Shown: piece after piece, positions 8,759 through 47,689 of the stretch
How positions within the stretch are numbered: position 1 is the stretch's first letter
Layout of the letters: every line of letters begins with the position of its first letter
Assembly: GCA_965231065.1 (NCBI GenBank)
Contig: OZ246410.1
Span: 579,046 to 643,045 of the forward strand
Origin: an uncultured Methanosarcinales archaeon
GTDB lineage: Archaea; Nanobdellota; Nanobdellia; Woesearchaeales; UBA10107
Direction: 5' to 3'
DNA length: 64,000 bases
Notes under the pieces: model-generated
Seen by the model: the letters and a program-made list of their open reading frames with translations, nothing else
Databases searched by the model: none
Told to the model about the DNA's origin: nothing
Made by a program: the position numbers and the translations under genes

Positions 8759-9514
8759 TTACTTTAGCTCGATACCGACCGGACAGTGATCAGAACCTTC
8801 GTATTCGTTGAGAATGAACGCCGATTTTATTTTGTTAATTAGTGATTTTGAGACGATGAAGTAGTCGATTCGCCAGCCGACATTCTTCTTTCTGGCGCTG
8901 AATCGGTATGTCCACCAGGAATACTTGACTTCATTCGGATGCAACGCTCTGAATGTGTCTACGAATCCTGCGTTCATGATATTGGTGAAGTCAGTTCGTT
9001 CTTCTATTGTGAACCCTGCATTATTCATATTGTTCTTTGGCCGTGCGATGTCTATCTCTTCGTGAGCGACATTCAGATCGCCGCAGACGATGACTGGTTT
9101 CTTTTTTTCTAACTTTCTTATGTATTTCAGGAAATCAGCATCCCATCTCTGTTTGTATTTCAGTCTCTTTAGTTCTTCCTGCGCGTTTGGTGTATAGACA
9201 TTTACAAGGTAGAAGTTTGGAAATTCTGCGGTGATCACTCTGCCTTCATCATCATGTTCTTTCATATCGATGCCATGGAAGATAGAGAGTGGTTTTATCT
9301 TAGAGATGATCGCAGTCCCTGAATATCCTTTCTTCTTTGCAGAGTTCCAATATCGATGCGGATATCCGTCAAAATCATGATCGACCTGATGCACTTCTGC
9401 TTTTGTTTCCTGCAGACAAAGAATATCTGGCTTTTCATTCTTCATGAACTCATGGAAGTCTTTTTTCTTGAGAATCGCTCTGATGCCATTGACGTTCCAG
9501 GAGATAAGCTTCAT
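8759..9514 (-). CDS. xth: Exodeoxyribonuclease III (ExoIII/APE1-family AP endonuclease)
   Basis: Begins MKLISWNVNGIRA. LCLQETK, GDLNVAHEEIDI and C-terminal SDHCPV motifs. Confidence 0.9.
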   Translation of the reverse strand: MKLISWNVNGIRAILKKKDFHEFMKNEKPDILCLQETKAEVHQVDHDFDGYPHRYWNSAKKKGYSGTAIISKIKPLSIFHGIDMKEHDDEGRVITAEFPNFYLVNVYTPNAQEELKRLKYKQRWDADFLKYIRKLEKKKPVIVCGDLNVAHEEIDIARPKNNMNNAGFTIEERTDFTNIMNAGFVDTFRALHPNEVKYSWWTYRFSARKKNVGWRIDYFIVSKSLINKIKSAFILNEYEGSDHCPVGIELK

Positions 9515-15378: not shown

Positions 15379-17649
15379 ATGGTGGTTACGAAAGAGGAAT
15401 TAGACTGGGCAGTACGGCATTGGACCACTGCCAATTATATCGCTGCTGCTTCTATCTACCTTAAAGATAACTTCCTTTTAGAACGTTCTTTAATTCCAGA
15501 TGATATCAAGGATTCATTGCTCGGTCATTGGGGAACATGTCCGGGCATCAATTTTGTCTATACCCATCTCAATCTCTTGGCAAAGAAAACAAAGCAGAAT
15601 ATCCTTCCGATCGTGGGACCTGGTCATGGATTCGCAGCAATCTTAGCGAATATGTTTATTGACGGTTCATTGAGAAAATATTATCCAGAACACACGAACG
15701 ATAAGAAAGGATTAGGGAAGACAATCAAATCATTCTGCTGGCCGGGAGGTTTCCCAAGTCATGCGAATCCGGGCGTTCCGGGAATAATCCATGAAGGAGG
15801 GGAATTAGGCTATGCACTCGGTACTGCATACGGCGCAGCGTTTGATAATCCTGATTTACTAGTCGCTGTTATTGTAGGCGATGGTGAAGCAGAGACCGGA
15901 CCGACCGCAGCTGCATGGCATAGCAATAAGTTTCTGAATCCGAAGAGAGACGGCGCAGTATTACCAATATTACATCTCAACGGTTACAAGATCAGCAGTC
16001 CGACAATATTCAGCACGATGAGCAATGAAGAACTGAAGAATCTCTTCACCGGATACGGTTATGATGTAAGATTCGTCGGTGAAAATCACAAACAGATGGC
16101 AGAGATACTGGAGTGGGCTCATAAAAAAATAAAAAATATAAAAAAATCGAGCAATAAACCGCAATGGCCATTGATAATACTAAAAACAAGAAAAGGATGG
16201 ACGGGATTGGAAGAAGGAAGCTTCAGAAGCCATCAGGTGCCTGTACGGGATGTAAAAACGAATAAGAAATCACTCCAAGCGTTAGAACATTGGCTCAGAA
16301 GCTATCATCCGGAACAATTGTTCAATAATGGAAGAATTACTGAAGAAACAACAAGATTCCTCTCTGAAATACGATTAGGAGATAATCCTGTCGCATTGGG
16401 TGGCAATATCAGAAAATCACTGAAACTCCCGAATGCAAAGAGATTTGAACTAAAGATAAAGAAGAAAGGTGCTCAGGAAGAAAGCAGCGTCGCCATTCTC
16501 GGCAATTATCTCAATGAAGTCTTCAAACGAAATGATAACTTCAGATTGTTCTGTCCTGATGAATTAGCATCAAATAAATTAGACGCAGTATTGAAATCAA
16601 CGAAACGAGCGTATGTCTGGCCAGTAAGTAACAAAGACAGAATCGATTCTTCGTTATCACCAAATGGCAGAGCGATGGAGATCTTAAGCGAACATACGCT
16701 ACAGTCATGGTTGCAAGGATACATATTGACAGGAAGACATGGCTTATTCCCGAGCTATGAAGCATTTTTACCGATAATAGACAGCATGGTCAGCCAGCAA
16801 TTGAAATTCATCAAGGCGAGTCTAGACTTCCCTTGGAGAACACCGATCTCTGCGTACAACTATCTGTTGACATCAGTATGCTGGCGTCAGGATCACAATG
16901 GATTCTCGCATCAGAATCCGGGTTTCATCAATATGGTGCTAAATAAAGCAAAAGAAGAACAGTTGGTGAGGATGTATTTCCCTGCTGATGCGAATATGTT
17001 ACTCGCGACTGCTGAACACACATTGAACTCGACCAATAGAGTGAATATCATCGTCGCAGACAAACAGCCGACAAAACAGTGGCAGACTTATGATGAAGCA
17101 GTCAAACAGTCAAAGACAGGCGCTGCTATTTGGGAATTCATCTCTGATAAAAATCCAGATATTGTACTAGCTGCCTGCGGCGTCTATCAAGTCCAGGAAA
17201 CGATGGCTGCGATTGAATTGCTGAACAAAGAAGTTCCGAACCTTAAGATACGTATGGTGAATGTCTCAGAATTAAATGTTCTTGGAAACTTTCCTGAGTA
17301 TCCGAATGGATTATCAGAAAACACGTTCAATGAACTATTCACCAGAGACAAAGAAGTCATATTCCTGTTCCATGGCTATCCTGAGACGATCAAACAATTA
17401 TTATTCGACAGAAATAATGTCGATCGGTTCCACATCTACGGATACAGCGAATCAGGAACGACGACGACACCGATGGATCTGCTGATCAGAAATGGTGTGA
17501 GCAGATACAATATTGTGACGTACGCATTGGAACATGCTTCTACATCATCTTCTTTGATAAAAGAGAAAGCTCCGCAGCTGATACGAAAATACAAAGAACT
17601 GATGCGAGAACACAGAAAATACATCAAAGAACACGGCAGAGATCCGTAA
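15379..17649 (+). CDS. xfp: Xylulose-5-phosphate/fructose-6-phosphate phosphoketolase
   Basis: WTTANYIAAASIYLKDN N-terminal signature. EGGELGYAL and GDGEAETGP thiamine-diphosphate motifs. 756 aa. The true N-terminus may lie upstream at a non-ATG codon. Confidence 0.9.
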   Translation: MVVTKEELDWAVRHWTTANYIAAASIYLKDNFLLERSLIPDDIKDSLLGHWGTCPGINFVYTHLNLLAKKTKQNILPIVGPGHGFAAILANMFIDGSLRKYYPEHTNDKKGLGKTIKSFCWPGGFPSHANPGVPGIIHEGGELGYALGTAYGAAFDNPDLLVAVIVGDGEAETGPTAAAWHSNKFLNPKRDGAVLPILHLNGYKISSPTIFSTMSNEELKNLFTGYGYDVRFVGENHKQMAEILEWAHKKIKNIKKSSNKPQWPLIILKTRKGWTGLEEGSFRSHQVPVRDVKTNKKSLQALEHWLRSYHPEQLFNNGRITEETTRFLSEIRLGDNPVALGGNIRKSLKLPNAKRFELKIKKKGAQEESSVAILGNYLNEVFKRNDNFRLFCPDELASNKLDAVLKSTKRAYVWPVSNKDRIDSSLSPNGRAMEILSEHTLQSWLQGYILTGRHGLFPSYEAFLPIIDSMVSQQLKFIKASLDFPWRTPISAYNYLLTSVCWRQDHNGFSHQNPGFINMVLNKAKEEQLVRMYFPADANMLLATAEHTLNSTNRVNIIVADKQPTKQWQTYDEAVKQSKTGAAIWEFISDKNPDIVLAACGVYQVQETMAAIELLNKEVPNLKIRMVNVSELNVLGNFPEYPNGLSENTFNELFTRDKEVIFLFHGYPETIKQLLFDRNNVDRFHIYGYSESGTTTTPMDLLIRNGVSRYNIVTYALEHASTSSSLIKEKAPQLIRKYKELMREHRKYIKEHGRDP

Positions 17650-24861: not shown

Positions 24862-25959
24862 ATGGGACTGCTCAGCAGATTAGTCGACGTAAATATAAGG
24901 CAAAAGGGAGTTGCAGAACATCTCTCAGGTCAGAAGTTGGAACCATTCGTAGTCTTTGGCATGAATCCGAATGGTGATCTCAACGATGAAGACAAATCAC
25001 CATCAGGAACATATGTCTCTTTTGATTCAGTAGGGGCGTTCAACTTTCTTCTGCAATATCCGAAGAAAAAGAAAGATAACTACCACGTATCACTTAATTT
25101 CAATGGATTGACTTCGAAAATCGATGCAAAAAATAAAAAGGCAATGGCCGAGTATGTGGATGGTCTTGGTTTAGATGACAGTTATTGGTCAAGAGTCCAC
25201 GTCACTGCTAATGGCGGTCACACCATGGAAATTGACCATAGCACCATTCCTCGTAACAATCAGCGGATGCATGCAATAGAATTTCTGTTTGTAGATAAAG
25301 GAAAGAAAGCCATCCCAATGAGTGCATTTTACAAAGCAGCAAAGCTTGCCTATGGTCTAGAGCTGAATAAAAAACCGTATGAACCAAACATGCGCGATGG
25401 TCCTTTCAGCGGAATGGATAGGCAAAACACAGGATTATTTGTAGTGGGCAGTGGAGGCTTGAAATATGGAACGTGGTATGAGGAACGAGCGAAAAAGGTC
25501 ATAGATGAACTAAGAAGAAAACGCGATAAAGCAGGAAAACCAGTACTCAGCAAAGCAGATATAAATAAACTGAAAGAACACGATATCACTTTAGTAGAAA
25601 AGATGCCCATGACTCATCGTGAGAAGAGCACCATTATTCAGAAAGGCGGATTAGTTCCTTCTCGTAAATACGTAAATCTACTGAACAACATCCCAAATGA
25701 TGTTGAGGGTATCTCTGTTCATGTTTTTGATGACGTTAGTGCAGGCGTCTATTGCGGTTATGGCAACAAGCCATGCGCCTTTTCTTTGAATGAAACAAGC
25801 AGAAATATGAAAGGAATATATAGACGCATAGACCATGCCTGGGATGTCTATTCTTCATTGACAGGAGCACGCATTGGTGCAGCCTATAAAGCCTTGCAGA
25901 GAAAATTTGGACAGGATATTGATGAATTAATAGAGAAAAAAAGAGCAGCAAAGCGATAG
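24862..25959 (+). CDS. Hypothetical protein (365 aa)
   Basis: Long intact ORF. No recognisable motifs. Confidence 0.5.
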   Translation: MGLLSRLVDVNIRQKGVAEHLSGQKLEPFVVFGMNPNGDLNDEDKSPSGTYVSFDSVGAFNFLLQYPKKKKDNYHVSLNFNGLTSKIDAKNKKAMAEYVDGLGLDDSYWSRVHVTANGGHTMEIDHSTIPRNNQRMHAIEFLFVDKGKKAIPMSAFYKAAKLAYGLELNKKPYEPNMRDGPFSGMDRQNTGLFVVGSGGLKYGTWYEERAKKVIDELRRKRDKAGKPVLSKADINKLKEHDITLVEKMPMTHREKSTIIQKGGLVPSRKYVNLLNNIPNDVEGISVHVFDDVSAGVYCGYGNKPCAFSLNETSRNMKGIYRRIDHAWDVYSSLTGARIGAAYKALQRKFGQDIDELIEKKRAAKR

Positions 25960-27059: not shown

Positions 27060-27698
27060 CTAATTATTTCTCGCAATGCTCGGATGATTCCTGAACAGAT
27101 CATCAAGAGCTGATTTTGTCTGAGCAAATACATCATCTATTGATTTTGATCCATCGATGATTACTCTTCTTTCATTTGGAAGGTATTCGCTTAGTTTCAG
27201 ATAATTATTCCTTAATTGTTTCTGGAATTCGAGATCCTTGTCAAAGACATCAGTAGCGCCTTCTTTTTTTCTTCTTTCGAATGCGATCTCCGCAGGACAG
27301 TCATATAGCAAAGTCATATCAGGAATAAGGATTCCTTTATGCATATGCAACAGAACAGATAAAGGCATTCCTTGTGTATGCTGATAAGCAAGAGTCGAAT
27401 CCTTGTACCTGTCGCTTATGACATGAGTGCCTCTCTGTAGTATTGGTTCGATATATTTATCGACGTGATTACGTCTGTCTTCTACAAAACGTTCAGCATA
27501 CCACTCAGGATCTCGTTTTACGTCAGTGCTGGTACGCATACGCTCTCTTATTTCCTTGAAATCCCGAGTAGGTTCGCGAGTGATATACAGATCAAATTCC
27601 TTAGAGAGATTAAATAGATATTTAGCGCCAAGAATAAGCTGAGTTCCTTTACCGCATCCATCGATGCCTTCAAAGACTATGAATGTACCGCGGTTCAT
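27060..27698 (-). CDS. tmk: Thymidylate kinase
   Basis: FIVFEGIDGCGKGTQ P-loop. DRY-like motif. Lid region. Confidence 0.9.
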   Translation of the reverse strand: MNRGTFIVFEGIDGCGKGTQLILGAKYLFNLSKEFDLYITREPTRDFKEIRERMRTSTDVKRDPEWYAERFVEDRRNHVDKYIEPILQRGTHVISDRYKDSTLAYQHTQGMPLSVLLHMHKGILIPDMTLLYDCPAEIAFERRKKEGATDVFDKDLEFQKQLRNNYLKLSEYLPNERRVIIDGSKSIDDVFAQTKSALDDLFRNHPSIARNN

Positions 27699-29368
27699 TT
27701 CAGATCAACAGAATCGTCAATGCCTGCTGCGAGATTCTTTCCTGCGATCTTTGATTGCTCTCTTGCACGTGATATCTTATTACCAGGATCGTTATAGTCC
27801 ACATAACCAAGCAGCGGTGCCATCCATGGTTCCTGTTCAAGCACTTTTCGAGCCATATCCATCGTCATAGCGCGATAGCTGAAATGTCCTGCCGGCTGCG
27901 TCCTGAGTTCAGAAAGATGCTGGAATTCACGTGCATTCATGCCAAGCATGAATCTGATTCGATGATTGAACAAGGTAGCATACTGCGCAGCGACATCCAG
28001 TCCTGCATGACGGATATCAGAATTAAGATCTTTCATCATCGCTTCTGCTTCTTCGACTTCATGTTCTAAGCCTATCTCTCCCATTTCAGGAGGCATGATA
28101 AATCCAAGATCAGGCGTCAGATCCTGTCTCTGTTGTGATAGCATTCGATGTCGTTCAAGATCACGATATTCAGCGAAACCGCCGACGAGATCGAATGTGA
28201 TTGGATAACCGCCTTCAGTTCCTCTTCCGGTTCGGTCGCGTCTGCTTTCCCTCTTGCCTTTGTACGTGTCAATAATTTGAAATTTCTTTTCAGGATGCAT
28301 ATCTCTGACTTCATCCATGATCTGACCGAGAGATATATTTGTGTAAGGAAATAAGCAGGAAGAAACGACTTCATCAAGATAGAATCCTCTCGGAACTAAC
28401 GTTACTGCATCATCTTTTGGTGTGATGTCGTGGAACAACTCATGAGCTGTCTTTTTCATATTCTTATTAATCTCTGCATATTGTGTATTTACTCTGTTTC
28501 TCTTGATGAACGTAGGAATGACTTTATTCAGTTCGGCTTCCAGCTCTGAGGCGCGTTCATGTCCCTCTGAAAGTTCCTGGCTTTTTAGGAATGTGAGAAG
28601 ATTTGTATAGAATCGCCCATTGCCGAAGAGACCGATATGCGTGAGTGTCGATGACGGCAGAACACATCTGCCGATGTCTAATGCTGCGCATCTGATGGTG
28701 AAGTTATATCCTTGATTGAATGCCTTTCGTTCATCATCTGAAACTAATTCATTTTCTTTTGCCTTTACTGTTTTACCGTCTCTGGTTACATCAAGCGTAT
28801 GCTTATCTCTCGGGAACACTCCTTTTTTGATGTGCTCGGAAAGACGTTTGATTCCTTCGGAATAGACTTCAAATGCGCGGTTATTGGTACGCTCAAATTT
28901 TTCAGCGAGGCCTGACTCCATGATCTCCATAGGCCGCAAGAATCTAAATCTTCCCTGTGCATCCTTGGCATCGTATTTGACATATCTTGTGGATTGCTCA
29001 ATCGGCGAGCCGCCGATCCGTCTGTCCTCGATGAATTTGGTAGCTAACTGAGAAATATCTTCGATACCGATATGAGCTCCTTCCAATTCTCCGACAGACT
29101 CATCGCCGAACTGGTTCAGGACTCGCTCCATGAGATTAGTGCCTTTCTCCTGATTCGGATTGCCGTTCTCATCAAGAAATTCATTTACGATCGTGAGTTG
29201 CATTCCTGTCGATGCTCTTGAATACCGTGCCAATGCGCCACCGGTCAATTCAGAAGGCATGCCGGTGATTGCAAAAGTTCTGCCGCCGACATTTGTGAAA
29301 TATCGTGCTAATTTTTCTTTGAGTTCAGGAGGAACTTCCTCTATAGAATTATAATTATACTTTGCCAT
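27695..29368 (-). CDS. thyX: Flavin-dependent thymidylate synthase ThyX with tandem duplicated domains (557 aa)
   Basis: Second half carries a canonical RHR-x4-SQQRQ ThyX motif. First half carries a degenerate copy (DRRIGGSPIEQSTRYV). Start codon overlaps the tmk stop. Confidence 0.75.
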   Translation of the reverse strand: MAKYNYNSIEEVPPELKEKLARYFTNVGGRTFAITGMPSELTGGALARYSRASTGMQLTIVNEFLDENGNPNQEKGTNLMERVLNQFGDESVGELEGAHIGIEDISQLATKFIEDRRIGGSPIEQSTRYVKYDAKDAQGRFRFLRPMEIMESGLAEKFERTNNRAFEVYSEGIKRLSEHIKKGVFPRDKHTLDVTRDGKTVKAKENELVSDDERKAFNQGYNFTIRCAALDIGRCVLPSSTLTHIGLFGNGRFYTNLLTFLKSQELSEGHERASELEAELNKVIPTFIKRNRVNTQYAEINKNMKKTAHELFHDITPKDDAVTLVPRGFYLDEVVSSCLFPYTNISLGQIMDEVRDMHPEKKFQIIDTYKGKRESRRDRTGRGTEGGYPITFDLVGGFAEYRDLERHRMLSQQRQDLTPDLGFIMPPEMGEIGLEHEVEEAEAMMKDLNSDIRHAGLDVAAQYATLFNHRIRFMLGMNAREFQHLSELRTQPAGHFSYRAMTMDMARKVLEQEPWMAPLLGYVDYNDPGNKISRAREQSKIAGKNLAAGIDDSVDLK

Positions 29369-41254: not shown

Positions 41255-41638
41255 TTATTTCTGCAGACAGTACTTATCAGGACCATGTAGAAATACTGAG
41301 AACGCAGCGATGGCAAGGATGATATCTCTTATAGCAACATCATTGTAACCAAGACTTATCCCTATCCCTGCAATATGCAGGAACGTAATGAATGCAGCAA
41401 TTCTTGTAAAGAATCCAAGCAATAAAGCAAGACCAAGGATGACTTCAAAGATACCGTTGTATACCATGAACTGCAATGGCGGAATAGGCAAGAGATTCGC
41501 TGTTGATGAAGATAAATATCCTACCAATCGATCAGGCGTGAATATGTTGGTAAATCCAAACCATAACAACAGAAGAGCGATTCCGATGCGCAGCACCACG
41601 GGTGCTTTTGCTTTGTAACGATCTATGTCCATCACCAT
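41255..41638 (-). CDS. DoxX-family membrane protein
   Basis: LRIGIALLLLWFG motif. Four TM segments. Confidence 0.65.
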   Translation of the reverse strand: MVMDIDRYKAKAPVVLRIGIALLLLWFGFTNIFTPDRLVGYLSSSTANLLPIPPLQFMVYNGIFEVILGLALLLGFFTRIAAFITFLHIAGIGISLGYNDVAIRDIILAIAAFSVFLHGPDKYCLQK

Positions 41639-41758
41639 GTGAATATAAGAAATACTCTATTTAAACTTTATCAAGTTCACTGTTTTAGTATGATCTAAAT
41701 GTTATGAGAAAGATTTAAAAAGCAAGGCATATTCACAAAATACAAAGGGGGATATTTT

Positions 41759-42454
41759 ATGGCAGAAACGATAACGATACAGAAAGATACAATATGGAAA
41801 GTCGCAACAGCGATTCTTGCAGTGGTTGTTTTGGCATTATTGCTCAATAAAGGAAGCACCGCACCAGCAGCGGCACCAAGCGCAGGCGACAATCAGCCAC
41901 CGGTAGTCAATGTTGATATGAAGACATTATCTGATGACGATCCATTCGTAGGCAACGCAAATTCAAAAGTTACCATCGTAGAATTCTCAGATTTCCAATG
42001 CCCATTCTGTAAGGCATTCTTCCAGCAGACAGAAGGACAGATCATAACTAATTATGTGAAGACGGGTAAAGTCAAATTCGTATACCGAGACTTCCCCTTG
42101 AGTTTCCACGTGAATGCTGAAAAAGCAGCAGAAGCAGCTAACTGTGCGAATAAACAAGGAAAGTACTGGGAGATGCATGATAAGATATTCCAGGCATCAC
42201 AGGCTGACGGCACCGGTATCGCACCAGATGATCTGAAGAAGATCGCTGCAGGTGTGAGCGGCATAGATACTGCGAAGTTCAACGCATGCTTAGATTCAGG
42301 CGAGACAGCAGCAGAGATAGCGAAAGATGAGAAAGACGGCATGGCAGTCGGCATCCAGGGAACACCAGGCTTCATCGTGAATGGAGTTGTTATCTCAGGA
42401 GCACAGCCATATTCGGTATTCCAGCAGGTCATCGAAGCAGCATTGAAGGCTTAG
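41759..42454 (+). CDS. DsbA-like thiol:disulfide oxidoreductase, membrane anchored
   Basis: N-terminal TM. FSDFQCPFCKAFF active site. GGGGG-type Shine-Dalgarno upstream. Confidence 0.8.
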   Translation: MAETITIQKDTIWKVATAILAVVVLALLLNKGSTAPAAAPSAGDNQPPVVNVDMKTLSDDDPFVGNANSKVTIVEFSDFQCPFCKAFFQQTEGQIITNYVKTGKVKFVYRDFPLSFHVNAEKAAEAANCANKQGKYWEMHDKIFQASQADGTGIAPDDLKKIAAGVSGIDTAKFNACLDSGETAAEIAKDEKDGMAVGIQGTPGFIVNGVVISGAQPYSVFQQVIEAALKA

Positions 42455-42588
42455 ATCAAGCCTTTCTTTTTTATTATTTTTAGCAATAACATTTATAAAA
42501 GAAAGCCACAATAATAGCTATAAACACAAGAGGTGTGCAATATGCCAGGAAAGAAAAAAGCAAAGGTAATGAAAAAATCAGCGAATGT

Positions 42589-43386
42589 ATGCGAATACTG
42601 CTGAAGATGAAGATCTTTTATTCTGTTATTTTAACATTATTATTAGTTTCTCCTACAGTACTTGCCCACGAAGGCATTGATGATGTTATTCGAAGCAATT
42701 CAATCATGTATTTGTTGATTGCTGCGAGCATCACTCTCTTTTTTGTGATATACGCAATCGAAGCGCAGCATCATTCAGGATTCACCAACAAAAAGAAATT
42801 GATCCTGTTCTTAGGGATTGTAATTCCAGTAATAACAACGACCGCATATCTGGTGACTGCCACTATCTATCTTAATTCAATATCGACATCAGGCGGACCG
42901 GTGCACTGGCATGCTGACTTCGAGATCTATGGCTGTTATGATAAAATCAATCTTATCTCGCCGAAAGGATTATCAAACAGAGTGGGAACATCAGTATTCC
43001 ATACACACGGCGACAACCGTATCCATGTAGAAGGAGTTGTTGAAAATCCACAGGATATTTCACTGCATAATTTTTTCGATGTAGTAGGCGGATCACTGAC
43101 CAAAGATGAGCTCATTGTACCTGCTGACAAGTATGTAGTGAAATTCCACAACAGAGACCGATGCGACGGCGGACCGGGAATGGTGCAGGTATTTGCCTAC
43201 ACAACAAAGGATGGAAAAGCAATCCAGAAAAAGGTTGATGAAAATTATATATTGTCTCCTTACACTAATGTTCCGCCAGGTGACTGCATCATTGTTGAAT
43301 TTAGTCCAGAAAAGACTACGACAAAGCATATGTGCGAAACATACCGCATAGCGATTGAAAAGGGTGATCTCTCCTATGGCGGTTGA
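42589..43386 (+). CDS. Secreted/membrane protein with His-rich metal-binding-like motifs
   Basis: Signal peptide. HWHADFEIYGC and FHTHGDNRIHVEG motifs. C-terminal Cys pairs. Start uncertain (42535, 42589 or 42607). Confidence 0.5.
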   Translation: MRILLKMKIFYSVILTLLLVSPTVLAHEGIDDVIRSNSIMYLLIAASITLFFVIYAIEAQHHSGFTNKKKLILFLGIVIPVITTTAYLVTATIYLNSISTSGGPVHWHADFEIYGCYDKINLISPKGLSNRVGTSVFHTHGDNRIHVEGVVENPQDISLHNFFDVVGGSLTKDELIVPADKYVVKFHNRDRCDGGPGMVQVFAYTTKDGKAIQKKVDENYILSPYTNVPPGDCIIVEFSPEKTTTKHMCETYRIAIEKGDLSYGG

Positions 43387-44086
43387 AGCATTTCTGCCAA
43401 CAATCGGCGTCATCCTGACTTCAGGAGCCATTGATTCGATCAATCCCTGCGCGATCGGTGTATTGATCCTGATGATCTCAGTACTGATGGCATCGAAACA
43501 GTCTGCAAAACGGATGCTGCTCCTTGGTTCGCTCTATATATTTGCGATATTCGCGACGTATCTCGCTGCGGGACTGGGATTGATCTATCTATTCTCGAGA
43601 ATCCCGCTCATCGTCACTGAATATCTCTCTATCATCGTCGGCAGCTTCATCATCTTTGCCGGTATCCTGGAAGTGAAAGACTTCTTCTGGTATGGTAAAG
43701 GGTTTTCACTGACAATTCCAGCAACAGCAGCGAAGAAACTCGACCAGTATGCGTCAAAGACAACGATACCCGGCGTCTTGATGCTTGGCGCATTCGTAGC
43801 AGGTGTTGAACTGCCCTGTACTGGTGCTCCGTATCTCGCAATCACGACCTTATTATCACAATACTTCGATTTCAAAGCATTATTGTTGTTAATCTTATAT
43901 AATATCATCTATGTACTACCGTTACTGATCATCTTGTTCATGGTCGCTGCCGGCGTTGAATTATATAAAGTAAAGAAATGGAAGCAAGAATCACGGGGAA
44001 CTATGAGATTAGCGATTGGATTATCCTTATTCGCGTTAGGATGGTTGCTCATCCTCATCGCGAACGGCATCATCAACTTCGGGTGA
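43376..44086 (+). CDS. CcdA/DsbD-beta family transmembrane disulfide-reductant transporter
   Basis: TM1 INPCAIGVL and TM4 LPCTGAPYL cysteines typical of the CcdA family. Confidence 0.7.
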   Translation: MAVEAFLPTIGVILTSGAIDSINPCAIGVLILMISVLMASKQSAKRMLLLGSLYIFAIFATYLAAGLGLIYLFSRIPLIVTEYLSIIVGSFIIFAGILEVKDFFWYGKGFSLTIPATAAKKLDQYASKTTIPGVLMLGAFVAGVELPCTGAPYLAITTLLSQYFDFKALLLLILYNIIYVLPLLIILFMVAAGVELYKVKKWKQESRGTMRLAIGLSLFALGWLLILIANGIINFG

Positions 44087-44090
44087 AACT

Positions 44091-44396
44091 ATGAAGAAAG
44101 CAGAAATAAAAAAAGAGATGACGTGCAAGCATTGCATTGTCAAACGGAAAGGACACAGCGAAGAGTTCGACGAGCGAAAGGTCTATTCGTCATGCTACGA
44201 AGCATGTCTCGCAGCAAGCATGACGCATGCAGAAGCCGAGAAGATATGCGACAAGGTCGCAAAAGAGATTCGTATGTGGGCCCATAAGAAGATCATGATG
44301 ACATCAGAAGAGATCTTCAAGAAAACTGTCAATGCAATCAGAAAGTATAGCGAGAAAGCCGCATATATGTATGAGACGCACCGAGATGTCTCTTAA
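44091..44396 (+). CDS. Stand-alone ATP-cone domain protein (101 aa)
   Basis: CIVKRKGHSEEFDERKV ... EIFKKTVNAIRKY fits the ATP-cone consensus (V-KR-G-x-E-F). Confidence 0.6.
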   Translation: MKKAEIKKEMTCKHCIVKRKGHSEEFDERKVYSSCYEACLAASMTHAEAEKICDKVAKEIRMWAHKKIMMTSEEIFKKTVNAIRKYSEKAAYMYETHRDVS

Positions 44397-47305
44397 TAAT
44401 CCAGTTCCTTGAACAGAGAACCCTGTACTTCTTTGACCGGCGCTGCTAATGAATCAGCACCAAAGAATTCAGCTGCTTTTTTCTTATGGCGCGCCATATA
44501 CATATCCCAGTCTGGATCTAATTCTGACAATGGCATGATGTAGATCGGTTTCAATTCACGCTGTTTTTTCTTTCGATCATAAACAGACTCAAAAACAAAC
44601 GGTCTGTGTGTAGCAATATCGGATGCCATGATGATATCAAAATCCTTCTTGGTTCTATATTTCTCCTTCAGATGTTTTTCCAGATCGACATCAGGAGTAT
44701 AGAATCGTATCTGTTTACCATTTTCATACCCAGTGTACCAATCCTGTGATTTGGTGTGACGCACTAATTTCTCATTGGAAAGCTTCTGTTCAAGTAATAA
44801 GCGTGATTGTTTCTCCATAGTGTCCTGAGCGTTCTCAAAACTATGCTGCAACGCATTCTTGATGAAATCACCATAGGTCTCCATCTCGAATGTGCTGAGC
44901 AGATGCTGCGGATGATCTAGGATCTTGATGCCTTTGTAGAAGCCGTGTCTCTCGTAGAATATGCGTTCTTCGCCATCATCACGTTCATTGCCGATCAAAG
45001 CACGGCCGATGAAATCAGCGAAGACGACAGGCGGATTCTCTGTCCAGATCTTATCATCGATGCCTAGTTCATGTTTCTTATGTGCCTGACTGAACTGCTC
45101 AGGAGTTCCGCCGGTGAAATAGAGATACGGTCCTTTTTGGTGGATGATCTTGAGCTTGTTATCGTTTGCAAATTGATAGATGCGATAGGCAAGTTTATCC
45201 AATGCAGTCGCGATGCTGACGTCATCGACATTGTAATTTCCCCAGAGACGGTTCTTCCGTTTACCGATGTTCTCTTCAAGTTTCGCGAGAGAACTTCGCA
45301 GCTCTTTCAATTTCTTTGGATTATCCTGATTCTTCAATGATTTTTCGATGCGATCCTTCTGTTTCTCCATGAGTTTCAGTCCTGCATAATCAGTAATCAT
45401 GAAATCAGCGATGGCGTTCTCATATTTCGCAAGGAATAGTTTTTCATCGCTCGTCCAATGATCTCGCGAGGAATCGGGTTTCTTATCGAATAACTGCGAT
45501 GATTCAGGGAATCGCTTTGCGATGAGATCACGCAGACACGCTCCAAATGGTATGTATGCTTTGATCACATTGCCATAGACACCGATCTTGTGCTCTTTGA
45601 TCGCAGGACTTATCGAGACAGCATCTTCGACCAGATCTTCGATATGATCCCTGAAATGAGACTTCGCTGCGGTACGCTGTTTGGTAAGAGATTTTGTCAG
45701 TAAATAAACATCATCTCGGTGGATACCTAATACGTTATGGAATCGTGCCTTCTGTATCGCATTGATAGCGCTCGGAGAATGCAGCAGACTCGCCAAAGGA
45801 ACATTGAAGTCTCTCGCAAGCTCTGTCGCGATCTTGAAGGTAGATCGGAACTCATTCGAATTGAATATGTCAAGAAGGACATTGACATCATGCGAAAGAT
45901 AGGTCGCTATCGTCTGCGCAGATTCTTTTTGTATCGGATTTGATCCGTCTCTTGCGATATTCTCCAGATCCTCCAACTGTTCATATGAGATACTCTTCTT
46001 GAACCGTTCATCGCCGAGGATGTGCTTAGCGACCATCTCCAATTTCTGATTCGGCAGATAATCAAATGCCGCTTGTGCCCATCGCAGAAGATCGATGACA
46101 GATCTACCCTGGATACCGACACGCTCGAAGAACTTTAACGTGACTTCTGTCCTCGGCTCTGTATGCGCTGCGCCGATATCGAACTTATTTTTAGATTTAC
46201 GTCGTGATTCACGCAGTTTGAGGATGTCGAATTTTGCATTGTAAGGTGAGATGATGAAAGGATTTTCTTTCTGAATCGAATGCTGTACTCCTTCAGCGAG
46301 CTGTTCTTCGGTATCATATCTGTGGATCGAGTATCCCTCGTGAATCTGAGCACCGACATCACTGAGCGTATGCATCTCTTTTGTGACTGTTCCCTTGTGA
46401 TTGTATGCAAGACCGACCCAGCTCACTTCGTCGTTGGTCTTGAATCGAGGGACTTCGATGTCAAGGAAAAGCCACTTCTGATCCATCAGTTCAGGATAGG
46501 ACAGCTGTCTCGGACTCTTCATGTGATTGGATGAAAGCACAAGATCAAGTGTTCTTCTCTTGCTGTCTCTGACTGCGTGCTTGCTGAATTGTTTGTAGAC
46601 ATCATGGAGTTCTTTTCTTTTTTCTATGATTGACTCAGGAAGTGATCGTGTCAACGGATGTGTCGTGAGCTTGCTTTGTTTTCTTTCAAAGAATAGTTCA
46701 TTGAGTGCATTGAATGATGCAGTAGCACGGCTCTTGGATTTTATTTCTTGCGACAGAGAATTCCTGAGATCCAACATCCCATCATCGAACTGTGTCTTCA
46801 ATGAAAGTAAGTGTGCTGTCTGTTCATCGAGTTCGACTTTTGTGACGGGGTTCGCAATTATTCTTCGCGCTTGCTCTGTATAGCGTGGATCACAGAGATA
46901 GGACGCGACTGATGTTTTTTTGAAGGAGATATGTGAAAGTGTTTCCTTCAGATCAGCAGTGCCTTTCAGTTGTATGACTTCATACGGACCGCCATGGATC
47001 GTCAACTTTGGATGCTTTTTCCTGAGTTCAAGAAGCAGCTTCTGTTTTTCCTGTTTGCGTTCTTTTTCTTCCGGCGAATCAAATTTGCTGCTGGTGAAGT
47101 TCGTGTAGATATCGATCGGAATATCTTTCAATTCTTCTGACGCCATCATGGTCTGAAGCAATTGCAGAGAGATATTCTCAGAAAGTGCGCGTGTATTGAA
47201 GACATAGGGAATAGCGGTCTCGAACGTACCGAGATCATGTACTGTGACAGAAGCACGTCCTTTATGGAACCGATGCCGTACATCCGAGATTATAGCTTCA
47301 AGCAT
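44393..47305 (-). CDS. Large DEDDy 3'-5' exonuclease-domain protein (970 aa) with an unrecognised C-terminal half of about 500 aa
   Basis: Exo I WLFLDIEV, Exo II YNAKFDILKL, Exo III YLSHDVNVLLDIF in the correct order and spacing. No DxxSLYPS, KxxxNSxYG or YGDTDS. No P-loop. Confidence 0.75.
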   Translation of the reverse strand: MLEAIISDVRHRFHKGRASVTVHDLGTFETAIPYVFNTRALSENISLQLLQTMMASEELKDIPIDIYTNFTSSKFDSPEEKERKQEKQKLLLELRKKHPKLTIHGGPYEVIQLKGTADLKETLSHISFKKTSVASYLCDPRYTEQARRIIANPVTKVELDEQTAHLLSLKTQFDDGMLDLRNSLSQEIKSKSRATASFNALNELFFERKQSKLTTHPLTRSLPESIIEKRKELHDVYKQFSKHAVRDSKRRTLDLVLSSNHMKSPRQLSYPELMDQKWLFLDIEVPRFKTNDEVSWVGLAYNHKGTVTKEMHTLSDVGAQIHEGYSIHRYDTEEQLAEGVQHSIQKENPFIISPYNAKFDILKLRESRRKSKNKFDIGAAHTEPRTEVTLKFFERVGIQGRSVIDLLRWAQAAFDYLPNQKLEMVAKHILGDERFKKSISYEQLEDLENIARDGSNPIQKESAQTIATYLSHDVNVLLDIFNSNEFRSTFKIATELARDFNVPLASLLHSPSAINAIQKARFHNVLGIHRDDVYLLTKSLTKQRTAAKSHFRDHIEDLVEDAVSISPAIKEHKIGVYGNVIKAYIPFGACLRDLIAKRFPESSQLFDKKPDSSRDHWTSDEKLFLAKYENAIADFMITDYAGLKLMEKQKDRIEKSLKNQDNPKKLKELRSSLAKLEENIGKRKNRLWGNYNVDDVSIATALDKLAYRIYQFANDNKLKIIHQKGPYLYFTGGTPEQFSQAHKKHELGIDDKIWTENPPVVFADFIGRALIGNERDDGEERIFYERHGFYKGIKILDHPQHLLSTFEMETYGDFIKNALQHSFENAQDTMEKQSRLLLEQKLSNEKLVRHTKSQDWYTGYENGKQIRFYTPDVDLEKHLKEKYRTKKDFDIIMASDIATHRPFVFESVYDRKKKQRELKPIYIMPLSELDPDWDMYMARHKKKAAEFFGADSLAAPVKEVQGSLFKELDY

Positions 47306-47353
47306 GCAAGATGCAACAAAGAACCATTAATAAAGCTTATTGACTTGAGATAC

Positions 47354-47689
47354 CTATTGTGAGACGAATTTCTGCAGTCTGTCCTCAAGCACTTTTTGTT
47401 CGCCTTTCGACAAGAGATGAAATTCGTGCGAGAAATCTGCCAGCATGTCGGCAGCATCCAGAAGTCCAATAAGACCTTTATTTCCTTCACTTTTTACAGC
47501 TAAATAGAACTTTCTTGCGCGGGGTGACGATAAGTGCTGTGCAAAATCAATATAGGCATCCATCGCTTCTGTCTCTCGGAGCTTAGGAACAAGAAGTCCA
47601 TCATACTTCACAAAGAGAGCATATGCATCCTCGGTCTTTCCTTTATTGATAGCATTATTGAACTTAGATACATATAGTGGTCGTGTCAT
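47354..47689 (-). CDS. Hypothetical protein (111 aa), immediately upstream of and co-directional with the exonuclease gene
   Basis: ORF. TTTAAATA box upstream on the minus strand. Confidence 0.5.
   Translation of the reverse strand: MTRPLYVSKFNNAINKGKTEDAYALFVKYDGLLVPKLRETEAMDAYIDFAQHLSSPRARKFYLAVKSEGNKGLIGLLDAADMLADFSHEFHLLSKGEQKVLEDRLQKFVSQ

What the first reader, a model, noticed from the sequence alone, without database searches (positions are those of the whole stretch)
44091..47689. 970-aa DEDDy exonuclease protein with no polymerase motifs, flanked by a stand-alone ATP-cone protein and a small unknown protein
Exo I (WLFLDIEV), Exo II (YNAKFDILKL) and Exo III (YLSHDVNVLLDIF) are unmistakable and ordered as in family-B polymerase / RNase D-like proofreading domains. 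The 280 aa before them and the roughly 500 aa after them contain none of the PolB A/B/C or KxY motifs and no P-loop. This could be an inactivated PolB, a highly derived polymerase, or a new exonuclease fusion. The gene converges with 4-nt stop overlap on a 101-aa ATP-cone protein (44091..44396). That protein is a nucleotide-sensing allosteric domain normally fused to RNR or NrdR, here free-standing. A 111-aa unknown gene at 47354..47689 is co-oriented just upstream.
Basis: partly seen in the sequence, partly recalled or inferred. Interest (0 to 1): 0.7.

Follow-up and report, generated by a model that had tools for sequence, protein, structure and literature searches.

The report
Polymerase-dead PolB that keeps its proofreading exonuclease
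The 970-aa gene encodes a full-length family-B DNA polymerase homologue from a Woesearchaeota (DPANN) archaeon whose DNA-synthesis site has decayed while its 3'-5' proofreading exonuclease site stays perfectly conserved, and the neighbouring ATP-cone gene belongs to a different, unrelated operon.

Summary
The ORFs, the three Exo motifs, the 4-nt convergent stop overlap and the lack of canonical PolB A/B/C motifs or a P-loop are all confirmed. The 970-aa protein is not a new exonuclease fusion. It is a complete PolB fold: AF2 pLDDT 90.9, Foldseek E 5.6e-18 over about 770 columns to archaeal PolB, and hhalign collinear with Pfu Pol. Recognisable remnants of motifs A, B and C remain, but the catalytic Asp residues are replaced.

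It belongs to an unannotated family of 292 cluster representatives. Every named member and every genomic locus found is Woesearchaeota. The exonuclease residues D282, E284, Y469 and D473 are 108/108 conserved. None of 154 members has a canonical polymerase motif. A C-terminal QxxLF clamp-binding-type motif on a disordered tail is about 100-fold enriched.

The best reading is a sliding-clamp-tethered stand-alone 3'-5' exonuclease built on a pseudo-polymerase scaffold.

The ATP-cone link is refuted. That gene is the last gene of a conserved DsbA / unknown-protein / SfLAP / ATP-cone cassette found elsewhere without the PolB-like gene. No other family locus has an ATP-cone or the 111-aa gene.

I could not test whether canonical PolB or PolD is present in the same genome.

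The parts
44393..47305 (-). Gene for the 970-aa PolB-like pseudo-polymerase with an intact exonuclease (stop codon included).
   Evidence: ORF. The N- and C-termini align with homologues. Full-length PolB fold. Exhaustive HMM search finds 292 representatives.
46484..47305 (-). N-terminal region, aa 1-274. It is a beta-rich PolB-type N-terminal domain plus a family-specific three-helix insertion (about aa 161-243).
   Evidence: AF2 secondary structure. Foldseek alignments cover the whole length of PolB targets. Sequence-only hhalign of this part alone is not significant.
45746..46483 (-). DEDDy 3'-5' exonuclease domain, aa 275-520.
   Evidence: Pfam PF03104 and NCBIfam Pol II. Profile against PDB archaeal PolB, E 4e-7. 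hhalign on the exo domain alone gives E 2.5e-11 to E. coli Pol II and 9.6e-10 to Pfu. 17 of the 19 family columns that are >=80% identical lie here.
46442..46474 (-). Exo I, WLFLDIEVPRF (aa 278-288), with catalytic D282 and E284.
   Evidence: Translation. D282 and E284 are 108/108.
46220..46252 (-). Exo II, ISPYNAKFDIL (aa 352-362), with N356 and D360.
   Evidence: N356 is 96/108 and D360 is 104/108. Position 355 is Y/H/F rather than the W of the Pol II-like 'GWN' signature.
45878..45913 (-). Exo III, TIATYLSHDVNV (aa 465-476), with Y469 and D473.
   Evidence: Y469 and D473 are 108/108.
45506..45583 (-). Decayed motif A, GVYGNVIKAYIPFGACLRDLIAKRFP (aa 575-600). It aligns to Pfu GLWENIVYLDFRALYPSII. 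The catalytic Asp position is Pro586 (or Tyr584 if ungapped).
   Evidence: Translation. hhalign. Column counts are G575 99/108, P586 80/108 and Y584 66/108, with no acidic residue.
45230..45271 (-). Decayed motif B, NIGKRKNRLWGNYN (aa 679-692). It aligns to Pfu KAIKLLANSFYGYYG.
   Evidence: hhalign. G689 is 59/108, Y691 is Y/F/H in 96/108, and position 682 is basic in 63/108. No member has KxxxNSxYG.
45110..45154 (-). Decayed motif C, LKIIHQKGPYLYFTG (aa 718-732). It aligns to Pfu FKVLYIDTDGLYAT. The two catalytic Asp positions are K724 and P726.
   Evidence: Translation. hhalign. Position 724 is E31/Q26/D15/N11/K10 and position 726 is P19/N16/S10/K9/D8/E8. 0 of 154 members have YxDTDS.
44750..44965 (-). 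KxY-region remnant and thumb base, aa 781-852 (RIFYERHGFYKGIK...FEMETYGDFIKNALQ...). It aligns to Pfu 575-666 (…KKRYAV…RRDWSEIAKETQARVLE…).
   Evidence: Profile against the PDB gives a second, collinear stretch, profile 761-810 to archaeal PolB 615-665. hhalign on the pol part alone gives E 2e-4 to Pfu 616-666.
44396..44458 (-). Disordered C-terminal tail, aa 950-970, carrying QGSLF (aa 961-965, nt 44411..44425). This is a putative sliding-clamp-binding peptide.
   Evidence: pLDDT is about 41 for residues 950-970. Translation. QxxLF lies in the last 12 residues of 24/108 members against 0.25 expected, and 0 of 1000 shuffles reach 24.
44091..44396 (+). Free-standing ATP-cone gene. It is adjacent but judged NOT part of the PolB-like unit. 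It is the last gene of the cassette 41759..44396 (+).
   Evidence: Pfam ATP-cone. The order p283 - SfLAP - ATP-cone is conserved in L020, L021 and L022 without a PolB-like gene. It is absent from all other family loci.
47354..47689 (-). 111-aa ORF co-oriented 48 nt upstream. It has no family assignment and is not conserved beside other family members. Its relation to the PolB-like gene is unsupported.
   Evidence: No significant hit in Pfam, NCBIfam, PADLOC or PHROGs. tblastn finds it only in L001, which is the same organism.

Best explanation
The 970-aa protein is a full-length family-B DNA polymerase homologue with N-terminal domain, DEDDy exonuclease, palm, fingers and thumb. It has lost the carboxylates and motifs needed for nucleotidyl transfer but keeps a strictly conserved 3'-5' exonuclease active site. 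This much is shown here.

The rest is inferred. The protein most likely works as a stand-alone 3'-5' exonuclease. The catalytically dead palm, fingers and thumb serve as a DNA-binding scaffold that holds a primer-template in an editing-type configuration. A flexible C-terminal QxxLF peptide tethers the enzyme to the sliding clamp (PCNA). It could then trim mismatched or damaged 3' ends left by another polymerase, acting as a proofreader in trans or a 3'-end processor at forks and repair gaps.

It is an ordinary chromosomal gene of Woesearchaeota with no operon partner. The adjacent ATP-cone gene and the 111-aa gene are not part of it.
For: Homology and fold:
- Pfam DNA_pol_B_exo1 and NCBIfam Pol II match the exo domain.
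- The family profile hits archaeal PolB in the PDB with two collinear stretches, exo and thumb base.
- hhalign of 108 family members against Pfu Pol (sequence verified identical to PDB 3a2f_A) gives local 275-852 to 134-666 at E 2.9e-11 and global 155-967 to 1-775 at probability 97.4.
- AF2 model 2 has pLDDT 90.9 and pTM 0.91.
- Foldseek gives E 5.6e-18 over ~770 columns to P. abyssi PolB, and also hits Pol delta and Pol II.

Active sites:
- D282, E284, Y469 and D473 are 108/108, and D360 is 104/108.
- The positions aligned to Pfu D405, D541 and D543 are Pro, a mixed column and a mixed column.
- 0 of 154 members have canonical motif A, B or C.
- 17 of the 19 strongly conserved columns lie in the exo domain.

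Scaffold retained:
- The pol half folds with high confidence from co-variation across members down to 18% identity, so it is constrained and not decaying.

Clamp tether:
- QxxLF occurs in the last 12 residues of 24/108 members against 0.25 expected.
- The window protein's QGSLF lies in a disordered tail.
- Archaeal PolB, ligase and FEN1 carry PCNA-binding motifs in flexible termini (PMC7594292), and E. coli Pol II ends in QLGLF.

Editing-like shape:
- The six P. abyssi 'edition mode' complexes give TM 0.48-0.50, against 0.34-0.42 for most apo or replicative structures.

Chromosomal housekeeping context:
- There are no defence, phage or viral matches.
Against: No biochemistry exists for any member. 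There is a precedent for being wrong: archaeal PolB2/Dpo2 was predicted inactive and later shown to be a working TLS extender (PMC8764526, PMC7544198). The QxxLF motif is detectable in only 22% of tails (39% with looser patterns). It is shorter than the usual archaeal PIP box and matches the bacterial beta-clamp consensus, so clamp binding is an inference. The similarity of an AF2 model to editing-mode crystal forms is weak evidence. I could not determine which active polymerases (PolB B3/B7, PolD) the same genomes carry, so the 'in trans' partner is unknown. Neighbourhoods give no functional partner.
Confidence: 0.7

Rival explanations
1. It is still an active DNA polymerase that uses a non-canonical catalytic constellation, as turned out for PolB2/Dpo2 and for piPolB, which lack one motif C aspartate.
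For: Precedent in PMC7544198 (section on B2) and PMC8764526. The full palm, fingers and thumb are structurally retained. Partial motif B features remain, namely a basic residue at 682, G689 and an aromatic residue at 691. One conserved acidic residue exists in the pol half, D639, at 89/108 D/E.
Against: Both metal-ligand positions (motif A Asp and motif C Asp-x-Asp) are non-acidic or unconserved across 108 sequences. Only G527 and G575 reach 80% identity outside the exo domain. A single semi-conserved Asp cannot supply a two-metal site. The conservation pattern is the reverse of what is seen for active polymerases, where pol motifs are the best-conserved part.
Confidence: 0.1
2. It is mainly a non-catalytic structural subunit of the replisome, like the inactivated C-terminal PolB module of eukaryotic Pol epsilon, and nuclease chemistry is not its selected function.
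For: Inactivated PolB modules used as scaffolds are well documented (PMC2669801, PMC7544198). One divergent member sits directly downstream of Orc1/Cdc6. Others lie among Topo VI, Toprim and Dna2 genes.
Against: In the known scaffolding modules the exonuclease site is also destroyed (PMC2669801, PMC4104785). Here all five DEDDy residues are invariant or nearly so in a family whose members share only 18-40% identity. That pattern is hard to explain without catalysis.
Confidence: 0.12
3. The exonuclease protein, the ATP-cone protein and the 111-aa protein form a nucleotide-sensing functional module.
For: Physical adjacency and the 4-nt convergent overlap in this genome.
Against: The genes converge, so they are not co-transcribed. 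The ATP-cone and 111-aa genes are absent from all 11 other family loci examined. The ATP-cone gene is instead conserved as the last gene of a p283 - SfLAP - ATP-cone cassette in three other DPANN genomes that lack the PolB-like gene there.
Confidence: 0.03
4. It is a mobile-element, viral or defence-system nuclease.
For: Inactivated PolBs have been exapted in viruses (PMC4304020, PMC5499653).
Against: There are no PADLOC or PHROG matches and no relatives on viral contigs with the patterns tried. The flanks are housekeeping genes such as deoxyhypusine synthase, FtsY, eIF6, RIO1 and Topo VI. Window composition is uniform.
Confidence: 0.03

Closest known systems
Archaeal replicative family-B polymerase PolB3 (Pfu, Tgo, KOD and P. 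abyssi PolB)
   Same: It has the same overall fold and domain order, the same DEDDy Exo I/II/III motifs, collinear remnants of motifs A, B and C and the thumb base, and a short clamp-binding-type peptide on a flexible C-terminus.
   Different: The catalytic Asp residues of motifs A and C are gone, and motif B and KxY are degenerate. It has about 150-200 extra N-terminal residues including a three-helix insertion. The tail motif is QxxLF rather than Pfu's QVGLTSWL.
Archaeal PolB2/Dpo2 (the 'inactivated' B2 group) and bacterial G2
   Same: Both are PolB paralogues with departures from canonical polymerase motifs, and both are chromosomal in archaea (PMC4104785, PMC7544198).
   Different: B2 has a disrupted exonuclease (ExoI not conserved, ExoIII missing), keeps one motif C Asp plus a D(K/R) motif, is linked to arCOG07300 and an inactivated RadA, and is in fact an active TLS extender (PMC8764526). 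This family has a perfect exo site, no conserved palm carboxylates and none of those neighbours.
C-terminal inactivated PolB module of eukaryotic Pol epsilon
   Same: A PolB fold is retained after loss of polymerase catalysis, and it is used for something other than synthesis (PMC2669801).
   Different: [quoted passage not shown] Here the exonuclease is intact and the protein stands alone.
E. coli Pol II and the archaeal B7 group of Woesearchaeota and Pacearchaeota
   Same: Pol II is the best NCBIfam hit and the best exo-only hhalign score. Pol II ends in QLGLF, the same QxxLF type as the family tail. B7 occurs in the same archaeal lineages (PMC7544198).
   Different: The clade signature ExoII 'GWN' is not met, since position 355 is Y/H/F and W in only 1 of 108 (PMC7544198 section 16). 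The polymerase half aligns to Pfu and not to Pol II. Pol II and B7 are active polymerases.
Prokaryotic PolX proteins with a dead polymerase site and an active PHP 3'-5' exonuclease
   Same: The evolutionary logic is the same: polymerase catalysis is lost and the associated 3'-5' exonuclease is kept under stronger selection (PMC12926913).
   Different: They are an unrelated polymerase family (X, not B) with an unrelated nuclease fold (PHP, not DEDDy).
Stand-alone proofreaders and PCNA-linked 3'-5' exonucleases (bacterial DnaQ/epsilon, PfuExo I, human APE2)
   Same: The proposed role is the same: an exonuclease acting on 3' ends in trans, in some cases clamp-associated (PMC12926913, PMC3591345, PMC2715233).
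   Different: Those are small single-domain or unrelated nucleases. None carries a complete dead polymerase scaffold.

Membership tests
Family-B DNA polymerase (homology and fold) | DEDDy exonuclease motifs Exo I (DxE), Exo II (NxxxFD) and Exo III (YxxxD) in order. | tested here: met
   The motifs are at aa 278-288, 352-362 and 465-476. D282, E284, Y469 and D473 are 108/108 and D360 is 104/108. Pfam PF03104 scores above its cut-off.
Family-B DNA polymerase (homology and fold) | Full N-terminal / exo / palm / fingers / thumb architecture. | tested here: met
Family-B DNA polymerase (active enzyme) | Motif A DxxSLYPS with a catalytic Asp. | tested here: not met
   The aligned position is P586 (80/108) or Y584. 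There is no acidic residue, and 0 of 154 members match the pattern.
Family-B DNA polymerase (active enzyme) | Motif C (Y)xDTD(S) with catalytic Asp residues. | tested here: not met
   The aligned positions are K724 and P726, both unconserved columns. 0 of 154 members match.
Family-B DNA polymerase (active enzyme) | Motif B KxxxNSxYG and the KxY motif. | tested here: not met
   Only a degenerate remnant remains (RLWGNY, with G689 at 59/108). 0 of 154 members match. The KxY tyrosine position is unconserved.
Family-B DNA polymerase (active enzyme) | Template-directed DNA synthesis. | not testable with these tools
   This needs a primer-extension assay.
Archaeal PolB2/Dpo2 (B2) group | Disrupted exonuclease (ExoI not conserved, ExoIII absent), one motif C Asp plus a D(K/R) motif, and neighbours arCOG07300 and an inactivated RadA. 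| tested here: not met
   The exo site is intact. No conserved motif C Asp is present. No RadA-like or conserved small neighbour appears in 12 loci. The features are as defined in PMC4104785 and PMC7544198.
Pol II-like clade (G1/B7) | ExoII 'GWN' with a conserved Trp. | tested here: not met
   Position 355 is Y69/H20/F15/W1 of 108. The signature is taken from PMC7544198 section 16.
Pol II-like clade (G1/B7) | C-terminal QxxLF clamp-binding motif. | tested here: met
   24/108 tails carry it against 0.25 expected. The window protein has QGSLF. E. coli Pol II ends in QLGLF. This is a resemblance only and does not establish clade membership.
Clamp (PCNA)-interacting proteins | Physical binding of a terminal peptide to the sliding clamp. 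| tested here: inconclusive
   The motif is enriched and lies on a disordered tail. It is present in only a minority of members and is shorter than the usual archaeal PIP. Binding was not tested.
Stand-alone DnaQ / RNase D-type DEDD exonucleases | A single exonuclease domain, with or without HRDC, and no polymerase fold. | tested here: not met
   The exo domain is PolB-type and is embedded in a complete PolB fold.
ATP-cone-regulated module (NrdR/RNR-like coupling to the exonuclease) | Conserved fusion or adjacency of the ATP-cone with the regulated protein. | tested here: not met
   The ATP-cone is absent from all other family loci. It is conserved next to SfLAP and p283 instead.

The most novel reading that the evidence does not exclude
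This family is the dedicated extrinsic proofreader of the Woesearchaeal replisome, a functional analogue of bacterial DnaQ/epsilon built from a dead PolB. It would be recruited to the clamp through a bacterial-type QxxLF peptide and would compensate for a replicative polymerase that lacks effective proofreading in these reduced genomes. That would be the first case of a cellular family-B polymerase converted into a trans-acting editing subunit.
Probability: 0.15. Interest if true: 0.8.

Novelty: new variant of a known kind. Interest (0 to 1): 0.55.

Why it matters
Family-B polymerases with a dead exonuclease (Pol alpha, Pol zeta, PolB2), or with both sites dead (Pol epsilon-C), are textbook cases. 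The opposite pattern, a dead polymerase with a strictly conserved exonuclease, is not described for family B in any of the surveys I could read (PMC7544198, PMC4104785, PMC2669801, PMC12926913). Here it defines a sizeable lineage-specific family that databases label 'hypothetical protein'. If the protein is a clamp-bound trans-acting editor, it shows how genome-reduced DPANN archaea organise replication fidelity. It would also give a natural system for separating the DNA-positioning role of the PolB palm and thumb from catalysis. Separately, the work removes a false lead, the ATP-cone association.

Tried and rejected
- **Word-index homology search.** It found only 8 relatives, which at first suggested a tiny family. 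The exhaustive HMM search corrected this to 292 representatives.
- **ATP-cone coupling.** Rejected after neighbourhood look-ups of 6 family members and 3 ATP-cone homologues, plus tblastn.
- **Operon partners.** ORF clustering over 12 loci found only synteny (Topo VI-KH-RIO1 on one side, Toprim-DUF87 on the other) with the gene inverted between genomes. No conserved co-oriented partner emerged.
- **Descent from the Pol II-like B7 group.** Considered because of the NCBIfam hit, the exo-only hhalign score and the QxxLF tail. It is not supported by the clade's GWN signature or by the polymerase half, so the origin is left open.
- **Defence or viral origin.** No PADLOC, PHROG or viral-contig evidence.
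- **Supplement of PMC7544198.** Searched for the homologue's genome and for Woesearchaeota, with no occurrences in the held files.
- **First alignment for the genome scan.** A1 was too divergent, so it was repeated with A2.
- **Canonical PolB or PolD in the same genome.** Not achievable. The window has none and the tools cannot read the rest of the 774-kb contig.
- **Third homology search.** I ran no further search on the 111-aa ORF, because its absence from all other loci already answered the question.

Full report
**Observation.** The 970-aa gene (44393..47305, minus strand) and the 101-aa gene (44091..44396, plus strand) converge, and their stop codons share TTAA at 44393..44396. The quoted Exo I, II and III strings start at residues 278, 355 and 469, and there is no P-loop. 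Pfam assigns DNA_pol_B_exo1 to residues 313-425 (E 8.6e-6, above the curated cut-off) and ATP-cone to the 101-aa protein (E 3.2e-9). The 111-aa ORF has no significant match in Pfam, NCBIfam, PADLOC or PHROGs. The window is ordinary archaeal chromosome. It holds deoxyhypusine synthase, an HhH-GPD glycosylase, a 5'-nucleotidase, transporters and phosphoketolase, and its composition is uniform.

**The family.**
- A word-index search found only eight relatives, all Woesearchaeota 'hypothetical proteins' at 26-40% identity.
- An exhaustive HMM search with their alignment found 292 cluster representatives at E <= 1e-3, of which 135 were at E <= 1e-30.
- Every member that carries a source name is 'hypothetical protein [Candidatus Woesearchaeota archaeon]'.
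- All nine loci in the species-representative genome collection are Woesearchaeota-type MAGs, some under a placeholder title.
- None was found on viral contigs with the patterns tried.

**It is a whole PolB, not an exonuclease fused to something new.**
- The family profile matches archaeal PolB structures in two collinear stretches. One is the exonuclease. The other is profile 761-810 against Tgo/D.Tok residues 615-665, the RRDWSEIAKETQ... thumb base.
- hhalign of a 108-member family alignment against that sequence gives a single local alignment, family 275-852 to Pfu 134-666 (E 2.9e-11). The global alignment is 155-967 to 1-775 at probability 97.4%.
- AlphaFold2 with 8 sequences gave pLDDT 75.5. 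With 63 sequences it gave pLDDT 90.9 and pTM 0.91.
- Foldseek on the better model aligns about 770 columns to 755-residue P. abyssi PolB at E 5.6e-18. Pol delta, Pol II and other PolBs follow, all at probability 1.0.
- The high-confidence fold of the C-terminal half, across members sharing as little as 18% identity, shows that the palm, fingers and thumb are structurally constrained and not decaying.

**Active sites.**
- In 108 representatives of at least 800 aa, D282, E284, Y469 and D473 are invariant. D360 is 104/108 and N356 is 96/108.
- The stretch GVYGNVIKAYIPFGACLRDLI aligns to Pfu GLWENIVYLDFRALYPSII, and the catalytic Asp405 position is occupied by Pro586 (80/108).
- LKIIHQKGPYLYF aligns to FKVLYIDTDGLYA. 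Asp541 and Asp543 correspond to K724 and P726, both highly variable columns.
- KRKNRLWGNY aligns to KLLANSFYGY of motif B.
- None of the 154 retrieved members has DxxSLYPS, KxxxNSxYG or YxDTDS.
- Of the 19 columns that are at least 80% identical, 17 lie between residues 282 and 473. Beyond the exonuclease only G527 and G575 qualify, and the only well-conserved acidic residue in the polymerase half is D639.
- Selection therefore acts on exonuclease chemistry and on the fold of the polymerase half, not on polymerase chemistry.

**A clamp-binding-type tail.**
- Many members end in QLSLF, QLELF, QGKLF, QISLF and similar peptides.
- QxxLF lies within the last 12 residues in 24 of 108 members. Shuffled tails give 0.25 on average, and 0 of 1000 shuffles reach 24.
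- With looser Q-x-x-hydrophobic patterns the count is 42 of 108.
- The window protein has QGSLF at residues 961-965, inside the only disordered segment of the model, residues 950-970.
- Archaeal PolB, ligase and FEN1 bind PCNA through motifs in flexible termini (PMC7594292).
- E. coli Pol II, read from the K-12 genome, ends in QLGLF.

**Neighbours.**
- The ATP-cone gene and the 111-aa gene have no homologue in any of the other family loci. Only L001 has them, and that is the same organism.
- In those loci the convergent downstream gene is a flavodoxin or a rhodanese, or the next gene is co-oriented (RIO1, Sua5). Upstream genes are an HD protein, FtsY, a Toprim protein or Orc1/Cdc6.
- ORF clustering over 12 loci finds only synteny. 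The gene lies between a Topo VI-KH-RIO1 block and a Toprim-DUF87 block in four genomes, but its orientation is inverted between them, so there is no operon partner.
- The ATP-cone protein belongs to a family of 68 clusters of free-standing 89-140-aa proteins, mostly 89-107 aa, in Woesearchaeota, Diapherotrites, Aenigmarchaeota and CPR Daviesbacteria.
- In three such genomes it is the last gene of a co-oriented cassette: a ~270-aa unknown protein, a ~236-aa SfLAP/DsbD-like membrane protein, then the ATP-cone. A DsbA-like gene is nearby in two of the three loci.
- That cassette matches window 41759..44396. Identities are 57-82% for the SfLAP protein and 37-57% for the 283-aa protein.
- One of these loci (L020) is syntenic as far as deoxyhypusine synthase but has four small ORFs where the window has the PolB-like and 111-aa genes.
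- The ATP-cone adjacency is therefore coincidental.

**Mechanism.** Three things are shown here: PolB homology over the full length, loss of the polymerase catalytic residues throughout the family, and strict conservation of the exonuclease site. The following is inferred. The protein is a stand-alone 3'-5' exonuclease that uses its dead palm, fingers and thumb to bind primer-template DNA, and its QxxLF tail to ride on the sliding clamp. It would edit or process 3' ends made by another polymerase. A weak but consistent hint comes from superposition. The model fits the six P. abyssi 'edition mode' complexes best (TM 0.48-0.50), against 0.34-0.42 for most apo or replicative-state structures.

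**Rivals.**
- A cryptic non-canonical polymerase. The PolB2/Dpo2 precedent (PMC8764526) keeps this alive at about 0.1.
- A purely structural replisome subunit like Pol epsilon-C. This is disfavoured because known scaffolding modules also lost the exonuclease site (PMC2669801).
- An ATP-cone module, which is refuted by the lack of conservation.
- A mobile-element or defence nuclease, for which there is no evidence.

**Comparison with known families.**
- PolB3 is the closest in sequence and structure, but the family fails the active-enzyme criteria.
- It is not PolB2/B2, because its exonuclease is intact, the B2 neighbours are absent and there is no D(K/R) motif.
- It shares a tail motif and the best exo-domain scores with Pol II and B7, but it lacks the clade's ExoII GWN signature and its polymerase half aligns to Pfu rather than to Pol II. 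Its origin within family B is open.
- The evolutionary logic parallels PolX proteins that lost polymerase but kept PHP exonuclease activity (PMC12926913).

**Novelty and limits.** I found no description of an exonuclease-proficient, polymerase-dead family-B group in the PolB surveys or by full-text searches. I could not test which active polymerases coexist with it. The window has none, and the remainder of the genome is out of reach of these tools. PolD is reported as widespread in DPANN (PMC6355029), and B7 PolBs are reported in Woesearchaeota (PMC7544198), but that is not genome-specific evidence. I rate this a new variant of a known kind, of moderate interest.

Noticed in passing
window 41255..44396 (DoxX 41255..41638 -, DsbA-like 41759..42454 +, 283-aa protein 42535..43386 +, SfLAP/DsbD-like 43355..44086 +, ATP-cone 44091..44396 +); L020, L021, L022: A free-standing ATP-cone protein is the conserved last gene of a cassette with a DsbD/SfLAP-like membrane protein and an unknown His/Cys-containing ~270-aa protein, in Woesearchaeota and Aenigmarchaeota. 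A DsbA-like gene is nearby in L020 and L022 but not in L021. A nucleotide-sensing domain coupled to a membrane thiol-disulfide-type cassette has no obvious explanation.
   Followed up: partly
L020 5312..6755 compared with window 44393..47689: A related Woesearchaeote is syntenic on both sides (ATP-cone cassette and deoxyhypusine synthase) but has four small unknown ORFs (92, 113, 143 and 130 aa) where the window has the PolB-like gene and the 111-aa gene. tblastn shows no similarity to either.
   Followed up: partly
L009/L010 4873..5949, upstream of the family gene at 6001..9192: The most divergent member examined (P0008, 1063 aa) lies 51 nt downstream of, and co-oriented with, an Orc1/Cdc6 gene. 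In L007, L013, L014 and L015 the family gene sits between Topo VI A/B and a Toprim (DnaG-like) plus DUF87 (HerA-like) pair.
   Followed up: partly
proteins P0062 (1214 aa) and P0066 (990 aa), C-termini: Some family members end in a CxCx(n)CxH pattern (…YKCTCEHNRIRKKECRHIK…, …YSCTCEWSQFRNRRYCSHIK…) that resembles a SWIM zinc finger, in place of the QxxLF tail.
   Followed up: no
window 56564..56653 (+): ARAGORN reports a 90-nt tRNA-Phe(GAA), about 15 nt longer than a standard tRNA. It probably contains an intron. It overlaps the start of a mechanically listed ORF at 56628..57200.
   Followed up: no
window 27695..29368 (-): A 557-aa protein carries two stretches of the ThyX (Thy1) domain, about twice the usual ThyX length. 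It may be a tandem or fused ThyX.
   Followed up: no
window 15379..17649 (+): A full-length xylulose-5-P/fructose-6-P phosphoketolase (XFP N, core and C domains, E 1e-129) in a DPANN-type genome.
   Followed up: no
window 54521..55879 (+) and 24862..25959 (+): Two sizeable ORFs (452 and 365 aa) have no Pfam match at E <= 1e-3.
   Followed up: no
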